A stretch of DNA of 64,000 nt from Nibricoccus sp. (GTDB lineage Bacteria; Verrucomicrobiota; Verrucomicrobiia; Opitutales; Opitutaceae). The notes under the pieces were generated by a model that did not search any database, was not told the DNA's origin, and saw nothing but the letters and a program-made list of their open reading frames with translations. The stretch covers positions 3,296,001 to 3,360,000 of the forward strand of contig JASGHG010000001.1 of NCBI GenBank assembly GCA_047602425.1. The letters are read 5' to 3'. Positions within the stretch are counted from its first letter, which is position 1. Each line of letters starts with the position of its first letter. The translations under genes and the position numbers were made by a program. Positions 47,421 through 61,898 of the stretch are shown one piece after another.

Positions 47421-47533
47421 CAGTTCGTGTTGCGGAAAAGCCCGCCACTGCGCAAGGAAATTGACCGACGGCCAAGGGTGGCGATTGGGATTCTAGAGCA
47501 TTTTTAAAATGTCATGGCCGCACAACTCCGGCC

Positions 47534-47604
47534 GCAGGGGCACAGTCTTGCTGCGCCCGGTTTCACTTTGCCACAGAAAGGGCGCAGCAAGACTGCGTCC
47601 CTAC
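47534..47604. repeat. REP doublet, family C (GTAGGGGCGCAGTCTTGCTGCGCCC-like)
   Basis: gcaggggcacagtcttgctgcgccc ... gggcgcagcaagactgcgtccctac; second doublet at 54403-54470. Confidence 0.8.
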
Positions 47605-47765
47605 GAAGACAGCTCGGTTCATAACACCGGTTTACGGCTACAGGTTTTATTGTATGTGCTCTAGCCCCGTCTTTGATCTGTGCTCCGCGCGTCGAGGCTG
47701 CCGAGCCACATGCGGTATCAGACCAAGTTGCAATCAAACGTATAAATATTGCCAGCGTTCGATGG

Positions 47766-47847
47766 GTAGGGACGGACCGCCGGGCCGTCCGTCCGCTCGG
47801 GCCATTCGCAGGCAACGTTGACGGACGACCCGGCGGGTCGTCCCTAC
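47766..47847. repeat. REP doublet, family B (GTAGGGACGGACCGCCGGGCCGTCCG)
   Basis: Inverted pair of palindromes with GTAG/CTAC ends; further copies at 53680-53705 and 61921-61947. Confidence 0.82.
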
Positions 47848-47934
47848 CTCGGCCGTTTTGATGTCTTTGAATGCAACTTGGTATCAGACACTCATTCTAC
47901 CTCGGAGAATGAGCCAATTGGCGCGGCAGCGCCG

Positions 47935-48096: not shown

Positions 48097-48768
48097 TTAG
48101 TGGTTCTGTGTTGCTGGTTCTGTTTTGATCGCCGTGCCATTGTCGCGCTTCGGGGCGCGCTTGATATGGCTGGCGGTTTGCCAGGCGCGCATCACTTCGG
48201 CATTGCGGCCGTACTTGTTGGTCACGATCGCATCGAGATCGTTCACGGCCTTCATGCCCTCGGCGATGAGGACGCCCACGGCCTTGGTTTTTCCCACCGC
48301 GGCGGTCGTGCCGCTCTTGAGCGCGGCTTGCGACAGGCGGATGGTTTTCACATCGGCCTCGAGGTTGGCGACGAAATCGGCGGGCATTTCGTACGCCAGA
48401 AAAAGCGGGGTGACGCCGTCCTTTTTCAAATTCGCCAGAAACGTATCGGCGGCGGTGAGGACGGCGGCGGGATTTTGCTCGGGAATGACGAACGAGTCGG
48501 CAAAGCCCGGTTTTTCCTGGGCGATGGCGCGCGCGGTTTTGGCGATGGCCTTTAGGTCGAGCAGCAAGGCGTCGAAGAGCACCTCGACGGCGGTGGCTCG
48601 AGGATGGATCTGTTGAACCTTGCCGGCGCTGAGTTGCGCGATCACCTCGGCCACCGTGACGCGGCATTTGGCGCCCTTGGAGTCGGGCAGAAGGTCTTTG
48701 AGGTAGTCGTTCCCGAAGGCGTCGACTTCGGTGAACATGTCGTAGCGTCGTGATTCCCTGTCATTCAT
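48097..48768 (-). CDS. Hypothetical protein, predicted all-alpha-helical
   Basis: 223 aa from ATG 48768 (MNDRESRRYDMF...), genome-like codon usage, amphipathic helices, own terminator. Confidence 0.8.
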   Translation of the reverse strand: MNDRESRRYDMFTEVDAFGNDYLKDLLPDSKGAKCRVTVAEVIAQLSAGKVQQIHPRATAVEVLFDALLLDLKAIAKTARAIAQEKPGFADSFVIPEQNPAAVLTAADTFLANLKKDGVTPLFLAYEMPADFVANLEADVKTIRLSQAALKSGTTAAVGKTKAVGVLIAEGMKAVNDLDAIVTNKYGRNAEVMRAWQTASHIKRAPKRDNGTAIKTEPATQNH

Positions 48769-48956
48769 GGATGTATTTTTATTTGATGGTTGTGTGTGAT
48801 GCGGAAACTCCCGTTGGACCTCCCGCCGGGTTCGGTGAAAACGTAAAACCATAACCAAATGCAAGAACTTCATTTTATTTTAAAAATATCTTACAAAAGG
48901 TTCGGTAAACGGAGCACGCCGGTGTAGGGGATTACCTGATTTGCGTTGGTTGCGGT

Positions 48957-49466
48957 GTGTTCGGCACGGGTCTCGCTTGCACTTTTTTTGTGCCGGCGGG
49001 CCGATGTGCCGGACGCGCTCTACTCCCGGAAGCTCTGTCACAAAAAGACCAACACCGCGTTCTTCCCCGCATCGCGCTTGCACGCTGCGGCGAGCGACTC
49101 ACACGCACCGGCGGCCCCCTCGCACGCTCCGGCGCGCCGCTGCACGCAACCGATTTGCAATTTACACCCACCGGCCGCCCGCTGACGCGCTCCGGCGCCC
49201 GATTTACACGCTCCGGCGAAGCACTCGCACGCTCCGGCGAAGGACTCGCACGCTCCGGCAGCCGACTTACACGGTCCGGCGGACGACTTACACGCTGCGG
49301 TCACGAGCTGACACGCTCCGGCGCCCTGCTCGCACGCTCCGGCCCCCGATCTACACCCTCCGGCGCTCCCCTGCACGCAAATGACCGGCGATTGCACGTG
49401 GGGTTGCTGTCGTGGTCCGGTTTATCCCGAGATGAATTGCACGATCCAGTCGCTCTCTCCAATTAA
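48957..49466 (+). CDS. Possible heptad-repeat protein (L-A/T-R-S-G-x-x)n
   Basis: Open frame across the array; several unit differences are synonymous in this frame (CTN, ACA/ACG, CGC/CGG, GGC/GGT); weak GTG start. Confidence 0.35.
   Translation: MFGTGLACTFFVPAGRCAGRALLPEALSQKDQHRVLPRIALARCGERLTRTGGPLARSGAPLHATDLQFTPTGRPLTRSGARFTRSGEALARSGEGLARSGSRLTRSGGRLTRCGHELTRSGALLARSGPRSTPSGAPLHANDRRLHVGLLSWSGLSRDELHDPVALSN
49077..49391 (+). repeat. Tandem array of 15 degenerate 21-bp units
   Basis: Consensus YTNRCACGCTCCGGC plus 6 variable nt; 21-nt register kept exactly throughout. Confidence 0.92.
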
Positions 49467-49492: not shown

Positions 49493-52400
49493 GTGCTTGG
49501 AGTCATGCAACCGGAAGGCAATTTTCTCCATAGGCTAACTTTTTTTTGGCCCCGTACTTTCATATTCATATCGGTGGTGTTCTTCTTCGGTGGGGGTGTT
49601 GCTGGATTGGAAGCGCAACCTGCTGGAAATGTTGAGAGGTTCATTCTACAGCCATGGCAGTGGGATGGTGTCGTCGCGGCGCTGGAAGATCCGAATATGG
49701 AGGTACAACGCGCTGCGCTCAATTGGCTCTCTAAGCTAGATCCGCGGAGTACCGACGCCCCGGATGATACACGATCCAAGCGACTTGCGGAACTAGTCGA
49801 CGAACATTTAAGCGATAGTCACGACTTTAGTGAAAAAATCGCCGCCTTACGTTCGCTATACTGGGGACAGTCTCCGCGTTCTCACCAGTTGGTGGTTGGG
49901 TTGTTCAAAAGCAAGGACCCAGTTTTTCTGAAATATGTTTTGGCAGCACTCGAAGAATTCGGACCGGACTGGGCTATGTTCGCGCCCCAAGTGGCAGACC
50001 TTCTCAACAACAAAGATACTGAAGTACAAGCCGCCGCAATCCGTGCGCTAGGTAATATGGGACCGGTCGGCGCAAAATTTTCAGCCCGATTGGCCAGCTT
50101 TCTAAAAAGCGGCGATTTCCATGTTCAGACGTCAACAATCTATGCACTTGTCAGACTAGGATTGGCCGGAACGATGTCCGCGCCTCAGCTCGCTGAACTC
50201 CTTAAAAAAGGTGACTCCAGTGTACGAGGTGCCGCAGCTTATGCCCTTGGTGCCATGGGTCCGGACGCAGCAAGCTTGGCATTGACGCCGGAATTGATCG
50301 AGCTCCTTAGAAACAGAAACCCAGAGGTTTTTAACTCCGTTGGTGCTGTATTCCAGGGACTGGGGCCCGCAGGCGTGGCATATGCCCCAAAATTGACCGA
50401 GCACTTCAATGATAAAGATCCCAGCGTACGATGCGCCGCAGCAGACCTAGTCGGTATAATCGGGGCGGCAGCTGCAGCATTTACGCCCGAGGTCGCGAAA
50501 CTCCTCAAGGACGACAGTCCAGCCGTTCAAAGATCCGCGGCCAATGCGCTTATAAAAATGGGGCCGGCCGGGAAAGCGCATGCTTCTCAAGTTGCCGAAC
50601 TCCTCAAAAGTAACAATACCGATGTACAGAGTTTTGCAGCTGGTGCCCTCGGGAAAATGGGATCGCAGGGCGCGCTCTTTGCATCCCAGATCGCTGGGCT
50701 CTTAAACAATAAAAGCAATGAGCTCCGTTGTTCTGCTCTATCCGCACTGGGCGAGATGGGACTGGCTGCTGGGGACTGTGCGCCTCAAATAGCCGAACAA
50801 CTTAAGTACAATAATATTTCCATCCAAAGATTAGCGGCCATCGCTCTTGGAAGAATAGGCCCAAAGGGTGCAGTCTTCGCGCCTCAGATAGCCGAACTCC
50901 TTAAAAGTGACAGCGCCAACATGCGGGGGTACGCAGTCTACGCTCTAGGCAACATGGGACTGGCCAGCGCACCTTTCGTGCCGCAAATCGCCGAGTTTCT
51001 AGACGACACTGATTTCGACCTCCGAATATCTGGAGCCGTTGCAATCGGTAAAATAGGCCCCGCAGGTAGCCCCGTTGCCCATAAAATGGTGACATGCCTC
51101 ACAGGCGGTGAAGAAAACTCTAAAATTGTATCTACAAACGCGCTCATTCGTGTCTGCGTTCAGCCAAATCCATCTGTTGCCATGTACCTCATGGATTTGT
51201 CTCATGGTTATATTGTTTCAAGGGGTTTTCTTGAATTTGTCGCTTATCTTCTGGGCGGAGGCGAAAAGCCGAATCGGTTTCGGGTTCAATGGCTTTCCAG
51301 TCGATCCCCGCAAGCGAGCAAAACAATTTCTGACCTGAACCATACGGAAACACGCGAAGTTCTAGCGGAATTACATAGCGCAATACGCGTGTCCGATAAG
51401 TTACCGACCGTAAGCAACAAGATAGCAAAACTAGCTGCGGACTTAGTGCGTAAACATGGGCCAGTCGATAACAACCTAGTGCTAGATCTAATGGATTCGT
51501 TGGAGAAGGCAGGATATCCTGATCAGGCGCGGACACTGGAAGATGCGCTCAAGAATAAATCCCGGTTAATAAATAAATTGGGCTGGAGTGCTGAGGCGTG
51601 GTCTGCACCGGGCGCGTCATGGGAAAAGTTTGCGGCGTGGAACCTGGGATTGTTGGCCACTTTATATAGCTGCGTGATAGTAGTGCTGTTTATTGGATCG
51701 CCGTTGAGCCTGGTCCAATTACACGAAGGCTGGGCGATCATCTTTGGCTCGGTGCCCTGGATCGGCGATGCGCTAGAGCGAGTGGCGAAGTTATCAGCGC
51801 TATTCCTTATTACCTCGCGTCGTTGTTTGGATGCCGTTGTCCACCATTATGCGGCAAAGGCTTTGGTTGATTTAGAGAAACGCACAGAAGTCGGATCGCG
51901 CCACCATTGGATTGCGGCTCCACTCGAAATTAGAGACGAAGAATTCGGTACGGCTAACCGACCATTCGTTCCTCCTAAAGATGCTCCAGCAGGAATGATC
52001 TACATACGAGGGCTCACGGAGCTTGGCAAGTATCTCACCGGACCACGAAGGTGGGTATCGATTGAAGGTCCAGGTGGCGTCGGTAAGTCAGTATTGGCTT
52101 TTCAAATTGCCCGTTGGTTTGCCGATTCCAAGGCGGCGAATCGTTTACATCAGGCCCAGGCTATCCCCATTTTTGTTCGGGAGCTCAAAGAGGGACTAGA
52201 TAAAGAAGTACTAGCCGAGCTTAAACGTGCATTGGGGATGCCCAAGATGTCTACGATACTTTCCGAGGCGCTTCTTAAGAACGGTCGAGTCTTGGCGATC
52301 GTAGATGGCGTCTCTGAAAAGAAGGTAGATTTCGACGAACTCAATTCCGAACAATTCAATCCAGCTAAAGATGCGCAGCTCACGCACTTCGTCGTAGTTA

Positions 52401-53131
52401 CCAGCCGTCGCCGCGTAAGACCTAATGATACGATATTAGTACGTCCTCTACACGTGGATTTGGGGAGTATCGATGTTGTCCTGAATCGGTATATCGATGG
52501 CGTCGTGGGCGCGGGTCGGTTTTCGCCGGCTCATCGCGAAGCTATTCGCGATGCAATCAAGAGAATCATGGACGAGCTTAAAACCGAGTCAGATCCGGAC
52601 GCGAATATCCCGCTTGTTTTCATAAAGCTGATCGTCGATAGAGCAGACAGAGTGCTGTCGAGTCCGGGGGCGATAAATGCACAGGATGGTGAGGATGTAG
52701 TCCTTCCGCAGAGTCTTTCCGATTTGGTGGACCAGTATCTGGCTAGTCTCTTGGAGAACACCCCCGACAAGGAGATCCATGCTGTTCGCACTCGAAAGGC
52801 AGCCCTCGCATGCGTCGGTAAAGAGGGACTCCCTGTGTCACGCCCGCTGGCGGCATATAGAACCAAAGGTCTTGAGCAGGATCAACTGGATCTACTCGTG
52901 ACTGTTGGCCTACTTACTAAGGATGAGAGCGACATGGGCGATCCTCTATATAAATTCGCGCTTGATCCAATCGCAGAATACTTAGCCGCAAAAGAACTCG
53001 TGACTTTGGTACGAGACGGGGAGTTGGAATCAGTCGAGCTTGCTCGCATGCGTGCACAATTTAACAAAGAATCTGATGTCAACCAACAGATCATTCGTGT
53101 GGCACGGGCCAAGAAGATCGATGTGGATTGA
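49493..53131 (+). CDS. HEAT-repeat / transmembrane / NACHT-like P-loop NTPase protein
   Basis: N-terminal hydrophobic helix; about 12 HEAT repeats (AAxALGxMGPxGxxFAPQxAELLK); central hydrophobic segments; Walker A GPGGVGKS; Walker B VLAIVDGVSE; LDPIAEYLAA. Many A/T-ending codons. Confidence 0.85.
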   Translation: MLGVMQPEGNFLHRLTFFWPRTFIFISVVFFFGGGVAGLEAQPAGNVERFILQPWQWDGVVAALEDPNMEVQRAALNWLSKLDPRSTDAPDDTRSKRLAELVDEHLSDSHDFSEKIAALRSLYWGQSPRSHQLVVGLFKSKDPVFLKYVLAALEEFGPDWAMFAPQVADLLNNKDTEVQAAAIRALGNMGPVGAKFSARLASFLKSGDFHVQTSTIYALVRLGLAGTMSAPQLAELLKKGDSSVRGAAAYALGAMGPDAASLALTPELIELLRNRNPEVFNSVGAVFQGLGPAGVAYAPKLTEHFNDKDPSVRCAAADLVGIIGAAAAAFTPEVAKLLKDDSPAVQRSAANALIKMGPAGKAHASQVAELLKSNNTDVQSFAAGALGKMGSQGALFASQIAGLLNNKSNELRCSALSALGEMGLAAGDCAPQIAEQLKYNNISIQRLAAIALGRIGPKGAVFAPQIAELLKSDSANMRGYAVYALGNMGLASAPFVPQIAEFLDDTDFDLRISGAVAIGKIGPAGSPVAHKMVTCLTGGEENSKIVSTNALIRVCVQPNPSVAMYLMDLSHGYIVSRGFLEFVAYLLGGGEKPNRFRVQWLSSRSPQASKTISDLNHTETREVLAELHSAIRVSDKLPTVSNKIAKLAADLVRKHGPVDNNLVLDLMDSLEKAGYPDQARTLEDALKNKSRLINKLGWSAEAWSAPGASWEKFAAWNLGLLATLYSCVIVVLFIGSPLSLVQLHEGWAIIFGSVPWIGDALERVAKLSALFLITSRRCLDAVVHHYAAKALVDLEKRTEVGSRHHWIAAPLEIRDEEFGTANRPFVPPKDAPAGMIYIRGLTELGKYLTGPRRWVSIEGPGGVGKSVLAFQIARWFADSKAANRLHQAQAIPIFVRELKEGLDKEVLAELKRALGMPKMSTILSEALLKNGRVLAIVDGVSEKKVDFDELNSEQFNPAKDAQLTHFVVVTSRRRVRPNDTILVRPLHVDLGSIDVVLNRYIDGVVGAGRFSPAHREAIRDAIKRIMDELKTESDPDANIPLVFIKLIVDRADRVLSSPGAINAQDGEDVVLPQSLSDLVDQYLASLLENTPDKEIHAVRTRKAALACVGKEGLPVSRPLAAYRTKGLEQDQLDLLVTVGLLTKDESDMGDPLYKFALDPIAEYLAAKELVTLVRDGELESVELARMRAQFNKESDVNQQIIRVARAKKIDVD

Positions 53132-54332: not shown

Positions 54333-54402
54333 CGTTTGAGATAGCTAAAGCACATGCAATATAACGGTAGCCGCAAATCGAATGATGAACCGGACTGTCT
54401 TT

Positions 54403-54470
54403 GTAGGGGCATTGCTGCGCCCGATTCGAGCCGGGCACTCGCAATGGGCGCAGCAAGACTGCGCCCCTAC
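54403..54470. repeat. REP doublet, family C (left arm with small deletion)
   Basis: gtaggggcattgctgcgccc ... gggcgcagcaagactgcgcccctac. Confidence 0.8.
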
Positions 54471-54603
54471 AGTCGGAGGTTTGCGACGACGCGGTGGCGC
54501 AGGCTCCTGTGCTCCGGGGTGGCGTGGGGTGCTGTGATGGAAAACGCGGAGCAGGAGACGGCGGGCGGGTTGACCGCGGGCGGGGGAGGCGGAGGATGGG
54601 GGC

Positions 54604-57549: not shown

Positions 57550-57803
57550 GGATTCTTTTCGAGGAGTTTTTGTTGGAGGAATGAAAATGGATTCCATGAT
57601 AGGCACCCGCACGACGGGCGGACCGCACAAGTTTTTTTCAAGGGAGTGGCGGTGTCCCTTTGGAGCGGCATTTCCAGAGGCGGACGGTGGCAATTGTCAC
57701 GAAAAAGCGAAACGCGGGTGGGCGAGTTGACTTGGTTCGAGTTTGGCACTTTTTGGGGAATCCAAGGCGGGTGCATGGTGTATTTCCCACTTGGCTCCTC
57801 ATT

Positions 57804-60800
57804 ATGAAAACAATGACGTTTGTGCGCGCAGTCTCACTGCGAATCATCGCAGGGTTGGTTGGAGTCTTCATCCCGGGTTTGCTGGCGGCCGCGCTTCCCA
57901 CGCCGACTCAGCCGGTGCTTGTCGTTCAGGAAAATGGAGCGGCGGACCGCTTTCAGTTTTTTGTGCCGGAGCTTCTTACGACCGAGGGTATCAACGGTTT
58001 TCAAACCGCACAGTTGTCGGAATTGACTGGATCGTTTCTGGCCAGCTACGACACGGTCATCCTGCCGCACCTGGCCTTGAGCGGGGCGCAGGCGACGCTT
58101 TTTCAGAACTATGTGAATAGCGGTGGCACCTTGATCGGTTTGCGGGCAGACGCGCAACTTGCCGTGGTATTTGGCGTGACTTCGTTGAACGCAACGCTGC
58201 CGGAGGCGTGGCTTCAGATTAACACGGGCACACCGCAGACCTTCGGGCTGGTTCGGCAGACGCTGCGGTTTCATGGAACCGCGGACCGTTATGCGCTGAA
58301 CGGCGCGAGCGCCCTCGCCACCTTGTATGAGACAACGTCCACCGCCACGACGTCGCCGGCGGTGGCGACGCATGTCTTCGGTGCGGGGCGCGCCATTCTT
58401 TTCAGTTTCGACCTGACTGAGAGCATCGTGTTGCTGCGTCAGGGCAACCCGGCGTGGGCGGGTGCTCCCAATAATCACGACGGCTTCCTCACCCTGCGCG
58501 CGTCGCAGATGTTCAAGGACAACGTGACCAACACCTCGTGGAATGATCTGGGCGACCAGGCGCTGAACGACGTGCCGCAGGCCGACGTGCAGCTTCGTCT
58601 TTTGAGCAATTCGATCGCGGTTGCCAGCGCTGCGAAACAAAAACCGCTGCCCCGCTTCTGGTATTTTCCCAACAAGGCGAGGGCGCTGCTCCTGTTGACC
58701 GGCGACCAACATGGAGAGTCGGAGGCCAATTCAGCGGCTGTGACCAGCGCGGTCGAGGCGGCGGGCGGTGGGTACACGAATTTCTTGTGGTATCCATTTG
58801 GTTCGGTCAGCGACAGCACGGTGACGAACTGGCTGGCCGCCGGCCATGCGTTGGGTATCCACTTCGACGATACGGGGGAGGGCGGCGGCAACGGTTCGGG
58901 GGCAACCTGGGCGGGGATGCAGGCGGTGCTGACGCAGGCGATGGCGGCGTTTGCGACTGCATACCCGAATGCGCCCGCGCCGGTCACGACGCGGAACCAT
59001 TTTCTCATTTGGCTGAGCAACAACGCGGCCGGTGCGCCCGATCCCATTGCGCAGGCGCGGTTGTTTCAGCAGGCCGGGATCAAATTCGACACGAGTTTCT
59101 CAGCATTTCCAAACCGCTGGGGTTACATGAACGGGAGCGGCCTGCCCTTGAAGTTTCTCGACCCGACGTCGGGCGAAATTGTGCACGTGTATGAACAAGC
59201 CACCCAGTACGAGGACGACGTGCAACTCAGCAGCGCGGGCTATAGCACGAATTGGAGTCTGGCGACGGCCCAGACCCATTATGAGCGATCGCTGTCTGAG
59301 AGCCTGACCAAGTACAACACGGCCGTCACGATGCTCTTTCATCCCGACGCGTGGGGTAGCTATCAGCCACACGGTTCATTCGTGCTGCAGTATGCGCAAA
59401 GCCACGGCATCCCGATGCCAAGCTTGGCAAAGTGGCTCGCATTCTGGGAGGGCCGGGCGGCGACCGGCGTTTCCAATTTCACGACGGGTTCGAACATCGT
59501 TTCGTTCGATACGACGGCTTCGCCCGCCGGGCTCACCCTGCTCATTCCGGCGGTGGCCGGACCCAGCGCGGTCTCGCATGTGGTGGTTGACGGTGCAAGC
59601 CAGTCCTTCACGGTCGAGGTGTATCAAGGAATCCGATACGCCAGCCTGACACTGGCCGCGGGCAACCACTCGGTCGCGGTCAGCTACGCGCCGAGCGACG
59701 CGACGGCGCTGGTGTTCGGCTCGGTGACTCCCTTGGCGGGCACGTCCGGCACCACCGTGCGCATCCAGGGTGGGACCATCGACCAAACAGTTTCCCTGAA
59801 TGACAACGGCAGTTATGTCGCCGGACCGCTGCCTGCTGGTACCTACACAGTCACGCCTGCGGCGGCCAACCGGACGTTCACGCCGGCGGCGCGCACGATA
59901 ACCGTGGGCAGCGGCGACGTGGGCGATGTGAATTTTACCAGTTCCGCGGTGGCGGGATCAACCGAGACGCTTTTCACCGATCAGACTCCGGTGCTCACCA
60001 ATATCTCGGACGGCCCGACGACGAACTATGAACTTGGTACAGTTTTTTCCAGTGCGGTGGAGGGCAGGATTCAGGCGATTCGTTTTTGGAAAACGGGCAA
60101 CGAATCCGGCACGCACGTTGGAAATATTTGGAGTGCGACCGGCCAGTTGCTCGCCTCGGTGACCTTCACCAACGAAACGGCCTCGGGCTGGCAGCAGCAG
60201 GCCCTGGCGACGCCGTTGCTCATCACAGCTGGCACCTCGTATGTGGTTTCGGTCAACACCGGCAACAGCTACTATGTCGCAACGCTGCAAGGACTCGCCT
60301 CGCAAATCGTCAACGGCGATCTGCGCTCGGTGGTCGGCAATAATGGCGTGTTCGGTCCGGCCGGCGCGTTTCCTACGAGTAGTTTTAATGCGGCGAATTA
60401 TTTCCGTGATGTCGTTTTCAGTCCGGGCCCGCCGCCTCCTGTCGGCGAGTCGATCTTCACCACGCAGACCCCGGCGCTCATCGATCAGAGCGATGGGCCG
60501 ACGACCAACTATGAGCTAGGAACAACATTCTATAGCGGCGTGGCAGGCACGATCTCGGCGATCCGTTTCTGGAAATCGCCGGCGGAGACCGGTGCGCACA
60601 TCGGTCGCATTTGGAGCGCGGACGGCCAGTTGCTCGCCTCGGTGACGTTTACGAACGAGACCGCGTCCGGCTGGCAGGAGCAGGCGCTCGCTACGCCGCT
60701 GGCCATTAACGCCGCCGCTTCGTACGTCGTGACGGTCAACACCGGCAACACTTACTACGTTGCGACCGAACTCGGGCTCGCGGCGCAGGTGGGGAACGGC

Positions 60801-61898
60801 AACCTGCGGGCGGCGGCCGGCAATAATGGCGTCTTCGGGCCGGTGGGCGCGTTTCCGACGAACAGCTACCAATCGACAAATTATTTCCGCGATGTTGTCT
60901 TTGTTCCGGGCGCCACTCCACCGCCATCGGCGGGTGAAACGCTTTTCACCACGCAGATGCCGGCGCTGCTGGATCTCAGCGACGGCGCGTCGGCTGACTA
61001 TGAACTCGGGACCGTATTTTCGAGTGCGGTGGCGGGTGAAGTGAGCGCGCTTCGTTTTTGGAAATCCGGAAACGAGACCGGCCAGCACGTGGGCCGCCTT
61101 TGGACCGCCAGCGGACAACTGCTCGCCTCGGTGACGTTCGCGAACGAAACGGCCTCCGGCTGGCAGCAACAGGCGCTCGGTACGCCATTGGCGATCACGG
61201 CCAACACCGACTACGTGGTCACGGTCAACACAGGCGGCACGTACTACGTTGCGACCGAACAAGGGCTCGCCAGCGAGGTGGCCAACCAGAATCTGCGGAC
61301 GACGGTCGGCAATAATGGCGTGTACGGTCCCGTCGGCTTGTTCCCGACGAACAGTTATCAAGCGACAAACTATTTCCGCGACGTGGTCTTCAATCCTGGA
61401 ACAGCTTCTCCTCCTCCGCCACCTGCGGGGGTGTCGATCTTTACCACACAGACTCCGGCCGCGACCAACTTGAGCGACGGTGCCAGCGTGAACTACGAAC
61501 TCGGCACGGCCTTTGCCAGCTCCGCGGCGGGCCGTGTGACGGCGCTTCGCTTCTGGAAGGCGGCCAACGAGTCGGGAACCCATGTGGGCCGCCTTTGGAG
61601 TACGGGCGGGCAATTGCTCGCTTCGGTGACTTTCGCGAATGAAACCGCGTCGGGCTGGCAGGAGCAGGCGCTCGATGCGCCTGTGGCCGTCGTTGCCAAC
61701 ACCGGCTACGTCGTATCGGTCAACACGGGCAACACCTACTACGTGGCGACCAACAACGCGCTTACTTCGCCGGTGACGAATCAGGATTTATCGACCTTGG
61801 TGGGAAATAACGGACTCTTTGGCCCGATGGGTTCGCTGCCGACCAACAGCTATCAAAGCACCAATTATTTTCGCGACGTGGTCTTTGTTCGCGACTGA
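57804..61898 (+). CDS. Large exported protein: N-terminal putative catalytic region, beta-sandwich, four DUF4082-like repeats
   Basis: Four copies of NYELGTxF..AIRFWK..ASGWQ.QAL..NYFRDVVF; N-terminal LLTGDQH/IHFD/RNH segment. Confidence 0.85.
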   Translation: MKTMTFVRAVSLRIIAGLVGVFIPGLLAAALPTPTQPVLVVQENGAADRFQFFVPELLTTEGINGFQTAQLSELTGSFLASYDTVILPHLALSGAQATLFQNYVNSGGTLIGLRADAQLAVVFGVTSLNATLPEAWLQINTGTPQTFGLVRQTLRFHGTADRYALNGASALATLYETTSTATTSPAVATHVFGAGRAILFSFDLTESIVLLRQGNPAWAGAPNNHDGFLTLRASQMFKDNVTNTSWNDLGDQALNDVPQADVQLRLLSNSIAVASAAKQKPLPRFWYFPNKARALLLLTGDQHGESEANSAAVTSAVEAAGGGYTNFLWYPFGSVSDSTVTNWLAAGHALGIHFDDTGEGGGNGSGATWAGMQAVLTQAMAAFATAYPNAPAPVTTRNHFLIWLSNNAAGAPDPIAQARLFQQAGIKFDTSFSAFPNRWGYMNGSGLPLKFLDPTSGEIVHVYEQATQYEDDVQLSSAGYSTNWSLATAQTHYERSLSESLTKYNTAVTMLFHPDAWGSYQPHGSFVLQYAQSHGIPMPSLAKWLAFWEGRAATGVSNFTTGSNIVSFDTTASPAGLTLLIPAVAGPSAVSHVVVDGASQSFTVEVYQGIRYASLTLAAGNHSVAVSYAPSDATALVFGSVTPLAGTSGTTVRIQGGTIDQTVSLNDNGSYVAGPLPAGTYTVTPAAANRTFTPAARTITVGSGDVGDVNFTSSAVAGSTETLFTDQTPVLTNISDGPTTNYELGTVFSSAVEGRIQAIRFWKTGNESGTHVGNIWSATGQLLASVTFTNETASGWQQQALATPLLITAGTSYVVSVNTGNSYYVATLQGLASQIVNGDLRSVVGNNGVFGPAGAFPTSSFNAANYFRDVVFSPGPPPPVGESIFTTQTPALIDQSDGPTTNYELGTTFYSGVAGTISAIRFWKSPAETGAHIGRIWSADGQLLASVTFTNETASGWQEQALATPLAINAAASYVVTVNTGNTYYVATELGLAAQVGNGNLRAAAGNNGVFGPVGAFPTNSYQSTNYFRDVVFVPGATPPPSAGETLFTTQMPALLDLSDGASADYELGTVFSSAVAGEVSALRFWKSGNETGQHVGRLWTASGQLLASVTFANETASGWQQQALGTPLAITANTDYVVTVNTGGTYYVATEQGLASEVANQNLRTTVGNNGVYGPVGLFPTNSYQATNYFRDVVFNPGTASPPPPPAGVSIFTTQTPAATNLSDGASVNYELGTAFASSAAGRVTALRFWKAANESGTHVGRLWSTGGQLLASVTFANETASGWQEQALDAPVAVVANTGYVVSVNTGNTYYVATNNALTSPVTNQDLSTLVGNNGLFGPMGSLPTNSYQSTNYFRDVVFVRD

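What the first reader, a model, noticed from the sequence alone, without database searches (positions are those of the whole stretch)
49493..53131. Membrane-spanning NLR-like protein: HEAT solenoid outside, NACHT-like NTPase inside, no obvious effector domain
Seen: N-terminal signal/TM helix, about 12 HEAT repeats, hydrophobic segments near 51620-51830, Walker A GPGGVGKS (about 52067), Walker B VLAIVDGVSE (about 52290), and a short helical C-terminus. Codon usage (CTA, ATA, TTA, AGA) differs visibly from neighbouring genes. Established: bacterial STAND/NACHT proteins usually run effector-NTPase-sensor repeats, and several act in anti-phage defence. Inference: the order here is inverted and the repeats may sit in the periplasm, giving a horizontally acquired transmembrane receptor that senses an envelope-level ligand and oligomerises in the membrane.
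Basis: partly seen in the sequence, partly recalled or inferred. Interest (0 to 1): 0.7.

Follow-up and report, generated by a model that had tools for sequence, protein, structure and literature searches.

The report
Chimeric membrane NLR-like receptor, swapped antenna
This bacterial gene encodes an immune-receptor-type (NLR-like) ATP switch inside the cell, joined through one membrane helix to an exported HEAT-repeat antenna taken from a different receptor family, and it belongs to a wider family that plugs many different outside antennas onto the same switch.

Summary
The intact 1212-codon ORF reads: signal-peptide-like N-terminus, 12 regular HEAT repeats plus cap and stalk, one transmembrane helix, two amphipathic helices, and a complete NACHT-fold module (model pLDDT 93; best matches NLRC4, NLRP3, NOD2). 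No effector follows. The gene has foreign codon usage and was found in 0 of 60 relatives and 0 of 400 phylum genomes.

New here: the protein is a chimera. Its TM-NACHT half is 49-56% identical to proteins with BNR beta-propeller ectodomains and nests among them. Its HEAT/stalk half comes from a different (Moorena-type) HEAT-TM-NACHT family. The junction is near residue 690. The family also carries LamG, Ig-like, caspase-like and metallo-beta-lactamase ectodomains. 16 of 144 members have long C-terminal tails, some with TIR, kinase, EAD1 or sigma54-activator domains. ATP-binding residues are near-invariant, but the NLR ADP-lock histidine is Leu (122 of 160) and Walker B is DGxSE.

Best reading (0.5): an outside-in receptor for envelope-level threats, activated by clustering. 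Topology is well supported (about 0.85). Function is untested and defence-island evidence is weak. Four earlier scan notes describe the cyanobacterial HEAT version.

The parts
49493..53131 (+). Single intact ORF, 1212 aa from GTG (1208 aa from ATG 49505): signal peptide - HEAT ectodomain - stalk - TM - amphipathic helices - NACHT-fold module
   Evidence: GC3 0.50 vs mean 0.67 over 2447 ORFs
49493..49615 (+). Predicted Sec signal peptide (residues 1-41; hydrophobic core 23-41; cleavage after A37 or A41 inferred)
   Evidence: KD 1.95; N-terminal hydrophobic stretch in 70 of 83 near-full-length relatives vs 2 of 17 cytosolic NACHT-HEAT controls; no SignalP available
49616..49969 (+). N-terminal cap, about three irregular HEAT-like helix pairs
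   Evidence: AF2 secondary structure; best hit P0119, E 7e-7
49970..51160 (+). Twelve 33-residue HEAT repeats (residues 160-556), alpha-solenoid
   Evidence: Foldseek best matches PP2A A subunit, karyopherins, alphaRep
51161..51562 (+). Helical stalk (residues 557-690) shared with Moorena-type HEAT-TM-NACHT proteins
   Evidence: 43.7% to P0119 over 135 aa, E 3e-31; no BLAST hit at E<=1e-3 to BNR-type relatives
51554..51568 (+). Inferred fusion junction (about residues 688-692) between the HEAT/stalk donor and the TM-NACHT module
   Evidence: similarity to P0119 ends and similarity to P0003/P0016 begins here
51608..51700 (+). Single transmembrane helix (model helix 706-735; hydrophobic core 718-736; Y725 and the following P737 invariant in 18 of 18 aligned)
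   Evidence: exactly one KD peak 124-142 aa before Walker A in 48 of 48 close relatives
51701..51796 (+). Two amphipathic juxtamembrane helices (737-768), conserved H744/E745, inferred to lie on the cytoplasmic face
   Evidence: unfavourable insertion score with a recalled Hessa scale
51818..53128 (+). NACHT-fold STAND module (NBD-HD1-WHD-start of HD2), residues 776-1212
   Evidence: AF2 pLDDT 93, pTM 0.91; VIA Z 15.3 NLRP3, 15.2 NLRP1, 14.5 NOD2; Foldseek NLRC4 E 7e-11
52067..52090 (+). Walker A GPGGVGKS (859-866)
   Evidence: Lys in 154 of 155 aligned
52289..52318 (+). Walker B variant hhhhDGVSE (Ser where NACHT has the second Asp)
   Evidence: D 160/162, S 159/162, E 162/162
52400..52408 (+). 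Sensor-1 T-S-R (970-972)
   Evidence: R 162/162, T 157/162
52952..52981 (+). Winged-helix motif KFALDPIAEY; L1157 aligns with NLRC4 H443, the ADP-lock histidine
   Evidence: HMM alignment to NLRC4 (in register but domain score only -0.4 bits); Leu 122, Phe 13, His 7 of 160; next Asp 160/160

Best explanation
A type I inner-membrane receptor of a divergent NACHT clade that signals outside-in. Shown computationally: domain order, fold, motif conservation, chimeric origin, patchy distribution. Inferred steps: (1) The signal peptide exports the HEAT solenoid to the periplasm, the TM helix stops transfer, and the NACHT module stays in the cytoplasm. (2) A proteinaceous or multivalent ligand at the envelope (phage injection apparatus, a competitor's or predator's delivery machine, or a neighbour's surface protein) binds the HEAT arm and clusters the membrane anchors. 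(3) The module has no C-terminal sensor to clamp it and lacks the ADP-lock histidine, so clustering rather than lock release drives ATP-dependent ring assembly. (4) In relatives with a C-terminal TIR, kinase, EAD1 or sigma54-activator domain the ring switches that domain on by proximity. In effector-less members such as this one, the ring gathers the TM and amphipathic helices, which occupy the usual effector position, and either perturbs the membrane or recruits an unlinked partner. The purpose is defence or non-self sensing, and ectodomain swapping changes what is sensed.
For: Fold. Single crossing: one peak in 48 of 48 close and 61 of 76 distant relatives; 124 of 125 have a TM peak. Export: N-terminal hydrophobic stretch in 70 of 83 vs 2 of 17 controls, lipobox-like pattern in 24 of 83 by a loose regex; relatives carry extracytoplasmic domain types such as YCF48/BNR propellers and LamG. 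Two relatives read TIR-TM-spacer-TM-NACHT, which puts both enzymes inside only if the NACHT-proximal segment crosses once (P0086, P0111). ATP-binding residues near-invariant. His-to-Leu at this position activates NLRC4 and two bacterial NACHTs (10.1101/2022.07.19.500537, passage). Immune-type C-terminal domains: TIR in P0023, L029, L031; kinase P0025; EAD1 P0032; FGE-sulfatase P0137, P0139. Swap: query nested in BNR clades at SH-aLRT 98/100/98; one clade for the HEAT-bearing members rejected, p-AU 5e-29. Patchy and foreign. One relative lies in a conjugative element (L007), one beside tRNA-Ser and an integrase-like ORF (L005).
Against: No effector in this protein or in 128 of 144 relatives, and no partner gene common to the loci. 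The window neighbourhood holds no defence system; PADLOC gives only generic HEAT, AAA and similar matches. Only 5 of 16 scanned loci had a defence- or toxin-antitoxin-type neighbour, without a control set. The closest BNR-type relatives have host-like GC3 (0.74-0.93) and metabolic neighbours, as for long-term residents. No positive-inside bias around the TM. 15 of 76 distant relatives show a second hydrophobic peak. The His/Leu register comes from a weak alignment. The Ser in Walker B leaves hydrolysis open.
Confidence: 0.5

Rival explanations
1. Same topology and outside-in logic, but a non-immune signal transducer for envelope state, cell-cell contact or development.
For: Weak defence context. 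One relative ends in a sigma54-activator domain and one in a protein kinase. Anabaena alr2986, which an earlier unchecked scan note assigns to a HEAT-TM-NACHT family, is listed among genes present only in filamentous cyanobacteria (PMC2821919, table passage) and beside a HetR-bound region (PMC4192349, table passage). Defence and non-defence STAND clades are interspersed (PMC13581612, passage).
Against: Not found in 60 relatives or 400 phylum genomes; foreign codon usage; TIR, EAD1 and FGE fusions. I did not test whether alr2986 belongs to this clade.
Confidence: 0.22
2. Inside-out device. The NACHT module with its short C-terminal end senses a cytoplasmic cue, and the N-terminal exported domain, which sits in the usual effector position, is the output that gets clustered at the surface.
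For: In bacterial NACHTs the N-terminal effector is the part that varies among close relatives, and short C-terminal extensions can serve as sensors (10.1101/2022.07.19.500537, section 12). Here too the variable part is N-terminal. One ectodomain is a metallo-beta-lactamase-fold domain (P0037).
Against: Most ectodomains are binding scaffolds (propellers, HEAT, LamG, Ig-like). The two caspase-like ectodomains lack the catalytic Cys (motif recalled). TIR domains, where present, lie on the cytoplasmic side.
Confidence: 0.15
3. The HEAT repeats are cytoplasmic (uncleaved or non-functional N-terminal segment plus a membrane hairpin) and fold back on the NACHT module as an ordinary intracellular sensor in permuted order.
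For: HEAT repeats are mostly cytoplasmic (general knowledge). No positive-inside bias. Some distant relatives have two hydrophobic peaks (15 of 76).
Against: One peak in 48 of 48 close relatives; residues 737-768 are amphipathic; signal peptides and lipoboxes are widespread; the same module carries periplasmic-type propellers; TIR-TM-TM-NACHT parity.
Confidence: 0.07
4. An accidental, non-functional fusion carried as decaying cargo.
For: This exact combination was seen once among the 287 other proteins retrieved; no expression data.
Against: Uninterrupted 3.6-kb frame with all family motifs intact; both halves have the same codon adaptation (0.53 and 0.54), so the fusion is not recent; the junction falls at the same place where other ectodomains join the module; other HEAT-TM-NACHT fusions arose separately.
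Confidence: 0.06

Closest known systems
Bacterial NACHT / NLR-related anti-phage proteins (bNACHT; 10.1101/2022.07.19.500537; passages and sections 6 and 12 read)
   Same: NACHT-fold module; HEAT, propeller and FGE domains; TIR, kinase, EAD, caspase partners; patchy distribution; a TM class predicted to sense intramembrane or periplasmic signals.
   Different: There the sensors 'tend to be' C-terminal, the TM class has multiple TM regions, Walker B is D[GAS]hDE and the winged-helix His is called defining. Here the repeats are N-terminal and exported, there is one TM, Walker B is DGxSE and the His is Leu. Their Figure 2 and Table S1 could not be seen and may list this architecture.
Animal NLRs NLRC4, NLRP3, NOD2
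   Same: Best structural matches of the cytoplasmic module; NLRC4 is the best genuine sequence match in the PDB (E 3e-4) and also lacks the second Walker B Asp (DGYNE).
   Different: Cytosolic, with C-terminal LRR sensor, N-terminal CARD/PYD and the ADP-lock His.
Cyanobacterial/Moorena-type signal peptide-HEAT-TM-NACHT proteins (P0119, P0175, P0179, P0182; four earlier scan notes)
   Same: Same layout; source of this protein's HEAT cap, repeats and stalk (26-38% identity; stalk 44%).
   Different: Different NACHT clade (about 20% identity in the module), DGxNE, and the winged-helix His is kept (FRHD motif).
DGR-diversified NACHT-CLec targets (10.1101/2023.09.22.558884, passages)
   Same: Predicted NACHT-linked sensing that includes the periplasm.
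   Different: C-terminal CLec sensor diversified by a retroelement; not an N-terminal exported ectodomain.
Avs antiviral STANDs (PMC13581612, passages)
   Same: STAND pattern-recognition logic, oligomerisation on ligand binding.
   Different: Cytoplasmic, N-terminal effector, C-terminal TPR-like sensor; no Avs model matched.
Toll-like and other type I receptors (recalled)
   Same: Signal peptide - repeat ectodomain - single TM - cytoplasmic signalling part; relatives P0023, L029, L031 end in TIR.
   Different: An analogy only; TLRs have no NTPase between TM and TIR.

Membership tests
STAND NTPases | P-loop NBD followed by helical domain and winged-helix domain | tested here: met
   AF2 model; NLR matches Z 14-15 over 340-370 residues, above NB-ARC (about 11) and AAA+ (about 9)
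STAND NTPases | Walker A Lys, Walker B Asp, sensor-1 Arg | tested here: met
   154/155, 160/162, 162/162
STAND NTPases | Nucleotide-dependent oligomerisation | not testable with these tools
   needs biochemistry
NACHT clade / bNACHT (definition from 10.1101/2022.07.19.500537) | Walker B signature D[GAS]hDE | tested here: not met
   DGVSE; Ser in 159 of 162, Thr in 3. NLRC4 itself has Asn there, so the signature is not absolute
NACHT clade / bNACHT | Winged-helix His equivalent to NLRC4 H443 | tested here: not met
   L1157; Leu 122, His 7 of 160; register from a weak HMM alignment
NACHT clade / bNACHT | Closer in fold to NACHT than to NB-ARC proteins | tested here: met
   top 8 VIA rows are NLR-type NACHT proteins by title or, for row 8, by recall; Foldseek rows 1-33 shown are NLRC4, NLRP, NOD2, NAIP
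NACHT clade / bNACHT | Pfam PF05729 at gathering score | tested here: inconclusive
   22.8 bits vs 26.7 for the query; some relatives pass (P0036, P0087; P0143, P0173)
NACHT clade / bNACHT | Effector-NACHT-sensor order | tested here: not met
   repeats are N-terminal of a TM; the protein ends 58 aa after the start of the WHD motif
NACHT clade / bNACHT | Anti-phage activity | not testable with these tools
   needs phage challenge
Avs / other PADLOC-DB 2.0 systems | Match of the NTPase module to a system model | tested here: inconclusive
   only generic HEAT matches and E>=0.0097 P-loop matches; library dates from 2023
Moorena-type SP-HEAT-TM-NACHT | HEAT cap, repeats and stalk of that family | tested here: met
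Moorena-type SP-HEAT-TM-NACHT | NACHT module of that clade (DGxNE, FRHD) | tested here: not met
   separate branch with 100% support; motifs differ
PBS lyase / NblB HEAT proteins | NCBIfam equivalog cut-off | tested here: not met
   NblB 54 vs 300 bits; CpeY 19 vs 600
KAP NTPases (definition recalled) | TM helices inserted inside the P-loop domain | tested here: not met
   TM lies about 140 aa before Walker A, none inside the NBD

The most novel reading that the evidence does not exclude
Bacteria have a widespread family of type I transmembrane NLR-like receptors. A NACHT switch that has lost the ADP-lock histidine is wired through one helix to plug-in periplasmic antennas (BNR propellers, HEAT, LamG, Ig-like, dead caspase) and, optionally, to cytoplasmic TIR, kinase or EAD outputs. 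This gives surface pattern recognition before a threat enters the cytoplasm, with specificity changed by recombination at a fixed juxtamembrane junction. This gene is a captured swap event.
Probability: 0.4. Interest if true: 0.88.

Novelty: new variant of a known kind. Interest (0 to 1): 0.7.

Why it matters
The characterised NLR and Avs receptors in the papers read here recognise molecules inside the cell. A single-pass receptor that couples an exported antenna to an NLR switch would join the two layers that animals and plants keep separate (surface receptors and NLRs), and would give bacteria a way to sense phage injection, competitors or neighbours at the envelope. The natural His-to-Leu change and the fixed junction make it directly testable: forced clustering should activate it, and swapped ectodomains should reprogram it. 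TIR- or kinase-bearing relatives offer a ready readout.

Tried and rejected
Homodimer prediction of residues 709-1174 with ATP: no verdict, score 0.00; not used as evidence. Sequencing runs: none was listed, so start site and expression are untested. Promoter/terminator scan: 1 and 4 sites, below shuffle means. Positive-inside rule: no bias. Paralogues in the genome: none by tblastn at E<=0.01. Viral contigs: 2 weak partial matches only; L014's ORFs did not look like a family member, L015 was not examined. A clean empty site was sought in 4 congeners: the flanking genes are shuffled, so no insertion boundary or target duplication could be defined. The 21-bp tract upstream was considered as a capture element but also lies upstream of the orthologous neighbour gene in G004, which has no NACHT gene there. 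The one recurring neighbour (convergent 390-aa membrane protein in 3 loci, L017, L021, L025) has no named family and no tblastn hit in this genome. PDB search with A1 returned only propeller hits because full-length rows dominated the profile. ESM Atlas returned NACHT/nSTAND clusters without a specific family. Literature: searches and passage searches found no description of this family. Six terms (PSII_BNR, YCF48, NCH4, alr2986, Opitut, signal peptide) had 0 hits in 7 readable supplements of PMC13581612; 3 further files were too large. The journal version of the bNACHT paper is not held and its Table S1 and Figure 2 were not seen. Rows dropped: tree of 82 of 84 chosen rows (P0161, P0023 skipped); the AU test used 32 of these; topology counts used 125 proteins with Walker A at least 230 aa from the start; tail counts used 144 of 173 with a recognisable WHD motif; Pfam was run on about 100 of the 173 family proteins.
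Full report
Observation. The ORF at 49493-53131 is intact. It has an N-terminal hydrophobic segment (residues 23-41), twelve regular HEAT units (160-556), a helical stalk, one strongly hydrophobic segment (718-736), and Walker A and B motifs at the stated positions. Codon usage is foreign: CAI in the lowest 1.5% of 2447 ORFs, the four named codons 4-6 times the genome rate. There is no paralogue in the genome.

The C-terminal part is a NACHT-fold module. An AlphaFold2 model of residues 688-1212 from a 68-row alignment has pLDDT 93 and pTM 0.91. It matches NLRP3, NLRP1, NLRP9, NLRP2 and NOD2 at Z 14-15, NB-ARC proteins at about 11 and AAA+ proteins at about 9; Foldseek ranks NLRC4 first (E 7e-11). 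The module runs to the C-terminus, leaving no room for a sensor or effector. Across 173 family proteins the Walker A Lys (154 of 155 aligned), Walker B Asp (160/162), Glu (162/162) and sensor-1 Arg (162/162) are near-invariant. Two NACHT signatures are changed family-wide: Walker B reads D-G-x-S-E (Ser 159/162), and the winged-helix position that aligns with NLRC4 H443 is Leu in 122 and His in 7 of 160. That register comes from a low-scoring but in-register alignment block anchored by flanking residues. The bNACHT preprint calls this His highly conserved and defining, and reports that His-to-Leu activates NLRC4 and two bacterial NACHTs (10.1101/2022.07.19.500537, passage). I therefore file the protein as a STAND with NACHT fold that fails two NACHT signatures, not as a canonical bNACHT.

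Topology. No SignalP or TM predictor was available, so I used family statistics. Of 125 relatives with enough sequence before Walker A, 124 have a hydrophobic peak; all 48 close relatives have exactly one, 124-142 residues upstream; 15 of 76 distant ones have two. An N-terminal hydrophobic stretch is present in 70 of 83 near-full-length members against 2 of 17 cytosolic NACHT-HEAT controls, and 24 of 83 match a loose lipobox pattern. The model shows one long helix (706-735) followed by two amphipathic helices. P0086 and P0111 have the order TIR, TM, spacer, TM, NACHT; TIR and NACHT both need cytoplasmic substrates, so the NACHT-proximal segment should cross once. The positive-inside rule gave no signal. 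I put N-out, NACHT-in at about 0.85.

The protein is a chimera. Searching with residues 560-1212 gave 26 other proteins, 20 of them at 49-56% identity over the TM-NACHT part; nearly all carry YCF48/BNR beta-propellers at the N-terminus, not HEAT repeats. Searching with residues 40-690 gave HEAT proteins whose best members (P0175, P0119 and Moorena proteins) also have signal peptide, HEAT, stalk, TM and NACHT, but a different NACHT with DGxNE and the His kept. The stalk is 43.7% identical to P0119, the module 56% to P0003, and the two similarities meet at about residues 688-692. In a tree of 82 NACHT modules the query sits inside BNR-bearing clades with SH-aLRT 98, 100 and 98 (quick search, LG+G4, no bootstrap). 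Holding the HEAT-bearing members together is rejected (p-AU 5e-29, 32 rows). Both halves have the same codon adaptation, so the fusion predates or accompanied arrival in this genome.

The family. The representative library holds 505 proteins at E<=0.001 and 90 at 1e-10. N-terminal domains seen include BNR propellers (most), other propeller-like domains (my reading, L030, L032), HEAT, LamG (L029), Ig-like (my reading, P0023, L034), caspase-like without the catalytic Cys (P0025, P0034), and metallo-beta-lactamase (P0037). Of 144 with a recognisable WHD motif, 128 end within 110 residues, like the query; 16 continue, with TIR, protein kinase, EAD1, sigma54 activator, FGE-sulfatase or HEAT among them. 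Named genome records are Opitutaceae MAGs (50-54%), Bacteroidota (30-33%) and weaker hits in other phyla. I did not determine the window's own organism.

Distribution and context. The module was found in 0 of 60 relatives and 0 of 400 sampled genomes of the phylum. In the complete congener G004 the orthologue of the upstream neighbour has other genes beyond it, and the flanks are shuffled. Among 24 related loci (20 after merging near-copies) no partner gene is common. One lies in a conjugative element (relaxase, coupling protein, TraG; L007) with lower GC3 than its neighbours, one beside tRNA-Ser and an integrase-like ORF (L005), one beside a transposase (L034). Of 16 loci whose neighbours (54 ORFs) were scanned with PADLOC, and most of them with Pfam, five had a defence- or toxin-antitoxin-type gene: type IIG restriction-modification (L016), HipA (L003), caspase (L008), DUF4062 with integrase (L029), Xre-like antitoxin (L035). 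There is no control for this fraction, many relatives sit among metabolic genes with host-like GC3, and the window itself holds no defence system. Context is therefore weak evidence for defence.

Mechanism. I favour an outside-in receptor (0.5): ligand-driven clustering of the exported solenoid brings together NACHT modules that have neither a clamping sensor nor the ADP-lock His; they form an ATP-bound ring; the output is a fused enzyme where present, otherwise the gathered membrane helices or an unlinked partner. All steps after the architecture are inferred. Rivals: non-immune envelope or developmental signalling (0.22), inside-out signalling with the exported domain as output (0.15), cytoplasmic HEAT (0.07), dead fusion (0.06).

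Comparison with what is known. The bNACHT preprint (sections 6 and 12 read) lists multi-TM NACHTs predicted to sense periplasmic signals but places sensors mostly C-terminally; its Figure 2 and Table S1 were not seen and may contain this architecture. A DGR preprint predicts a NACHT target with periplasmic domains (passages). The 2026 STAND survey (passages of preprint and journal version; 7 supplements searched) does not mention such a family under the terms tried. Seven library searches found no description. Four earlier notes of this scan describe the cyanobacterial HEAT-TM-NACHT layout; they are unchecked AI notes and not independent support, and they lower the novelty of the bare architecture. 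What this locus adds is the evidence for ectodomain exchange between two distant receptor clades, the breadth of antennas and outputs on one module, and the family-wide loss of the His lock.

Verdict. Real, intact, horizontally acquired; a new variant of the NLR-like STAND receptors with type I membrane topology; function untested. Interest 0.7.

Noticed in passing
window 49081-49365: Imperfect 21-bp tandem tract (13.6 copies) between the divergent hypothetical gene and the NACHT gene. A similar tract lies upstream of the orthologue in G004, and two more copies occur in this genome (G000:C1:59970-60305 and 848099-848442). Role unknown.
   Followed up: partly
L058:349-2045 (G000:C1 about 845850-847550): Two low-GC3 genes downstream of another copy of the 21-bp tract: a 308-aa protein with a C-terminal TIR domain (Pfam TIR_2 E 2e-27) and a 256-aa unknown. 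A possible defence pair, and a conceivable unlinked partner; not tested.
   Followed up: partly
window 48097-48873 (-): 258-aa helical hypothetical protein with no Pfam, NCBIfam or PADLOC match; 82% DNA identity in G004; one paralogue at 35% in this genome.
   Followed up: partly
window 47493-47890 and 54345-54486: Interspersed repeats of about 170 bp with more than 20 copies in this genome at 80-95% identity; MITE- or REP-like by appearance.
   Followed up: no
L017:9771-10949, L021:8593-9762, L025:4500-5702: Unnamed 390-400 aa membrane protein convergent with BNR-type family members in three loci (57-61% identical); no Pfam family.
   Followed up: partly
P0005, P0012-P0019, P0021, P0022: Many BNR-type members begin with a lipobox-like signal and also have the internal TM, so the ectodomain may be anchored at both ends, possibly across the periplasm.
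   Followed up: no
P0146; P0084: HEAT-TM-NACHT fused to a C-terminal sigma54-activator AAA+ domain, and a member fused to a Cpn60-like domain (could be an assembly artefact).
   Followed up: no
L034:43-2361: A family member whose NACHT module breaks off after sensor-1 and continues in frame into a DNA polymerase A-like fragment, beside a DDE transposase.
   Followed up: no
window 57660-61898: 1412-aa predicted secreted protein ending in four similar domains of about 160 aa; not examined beyond a PADLOC scan with no match.
   Followed up: no
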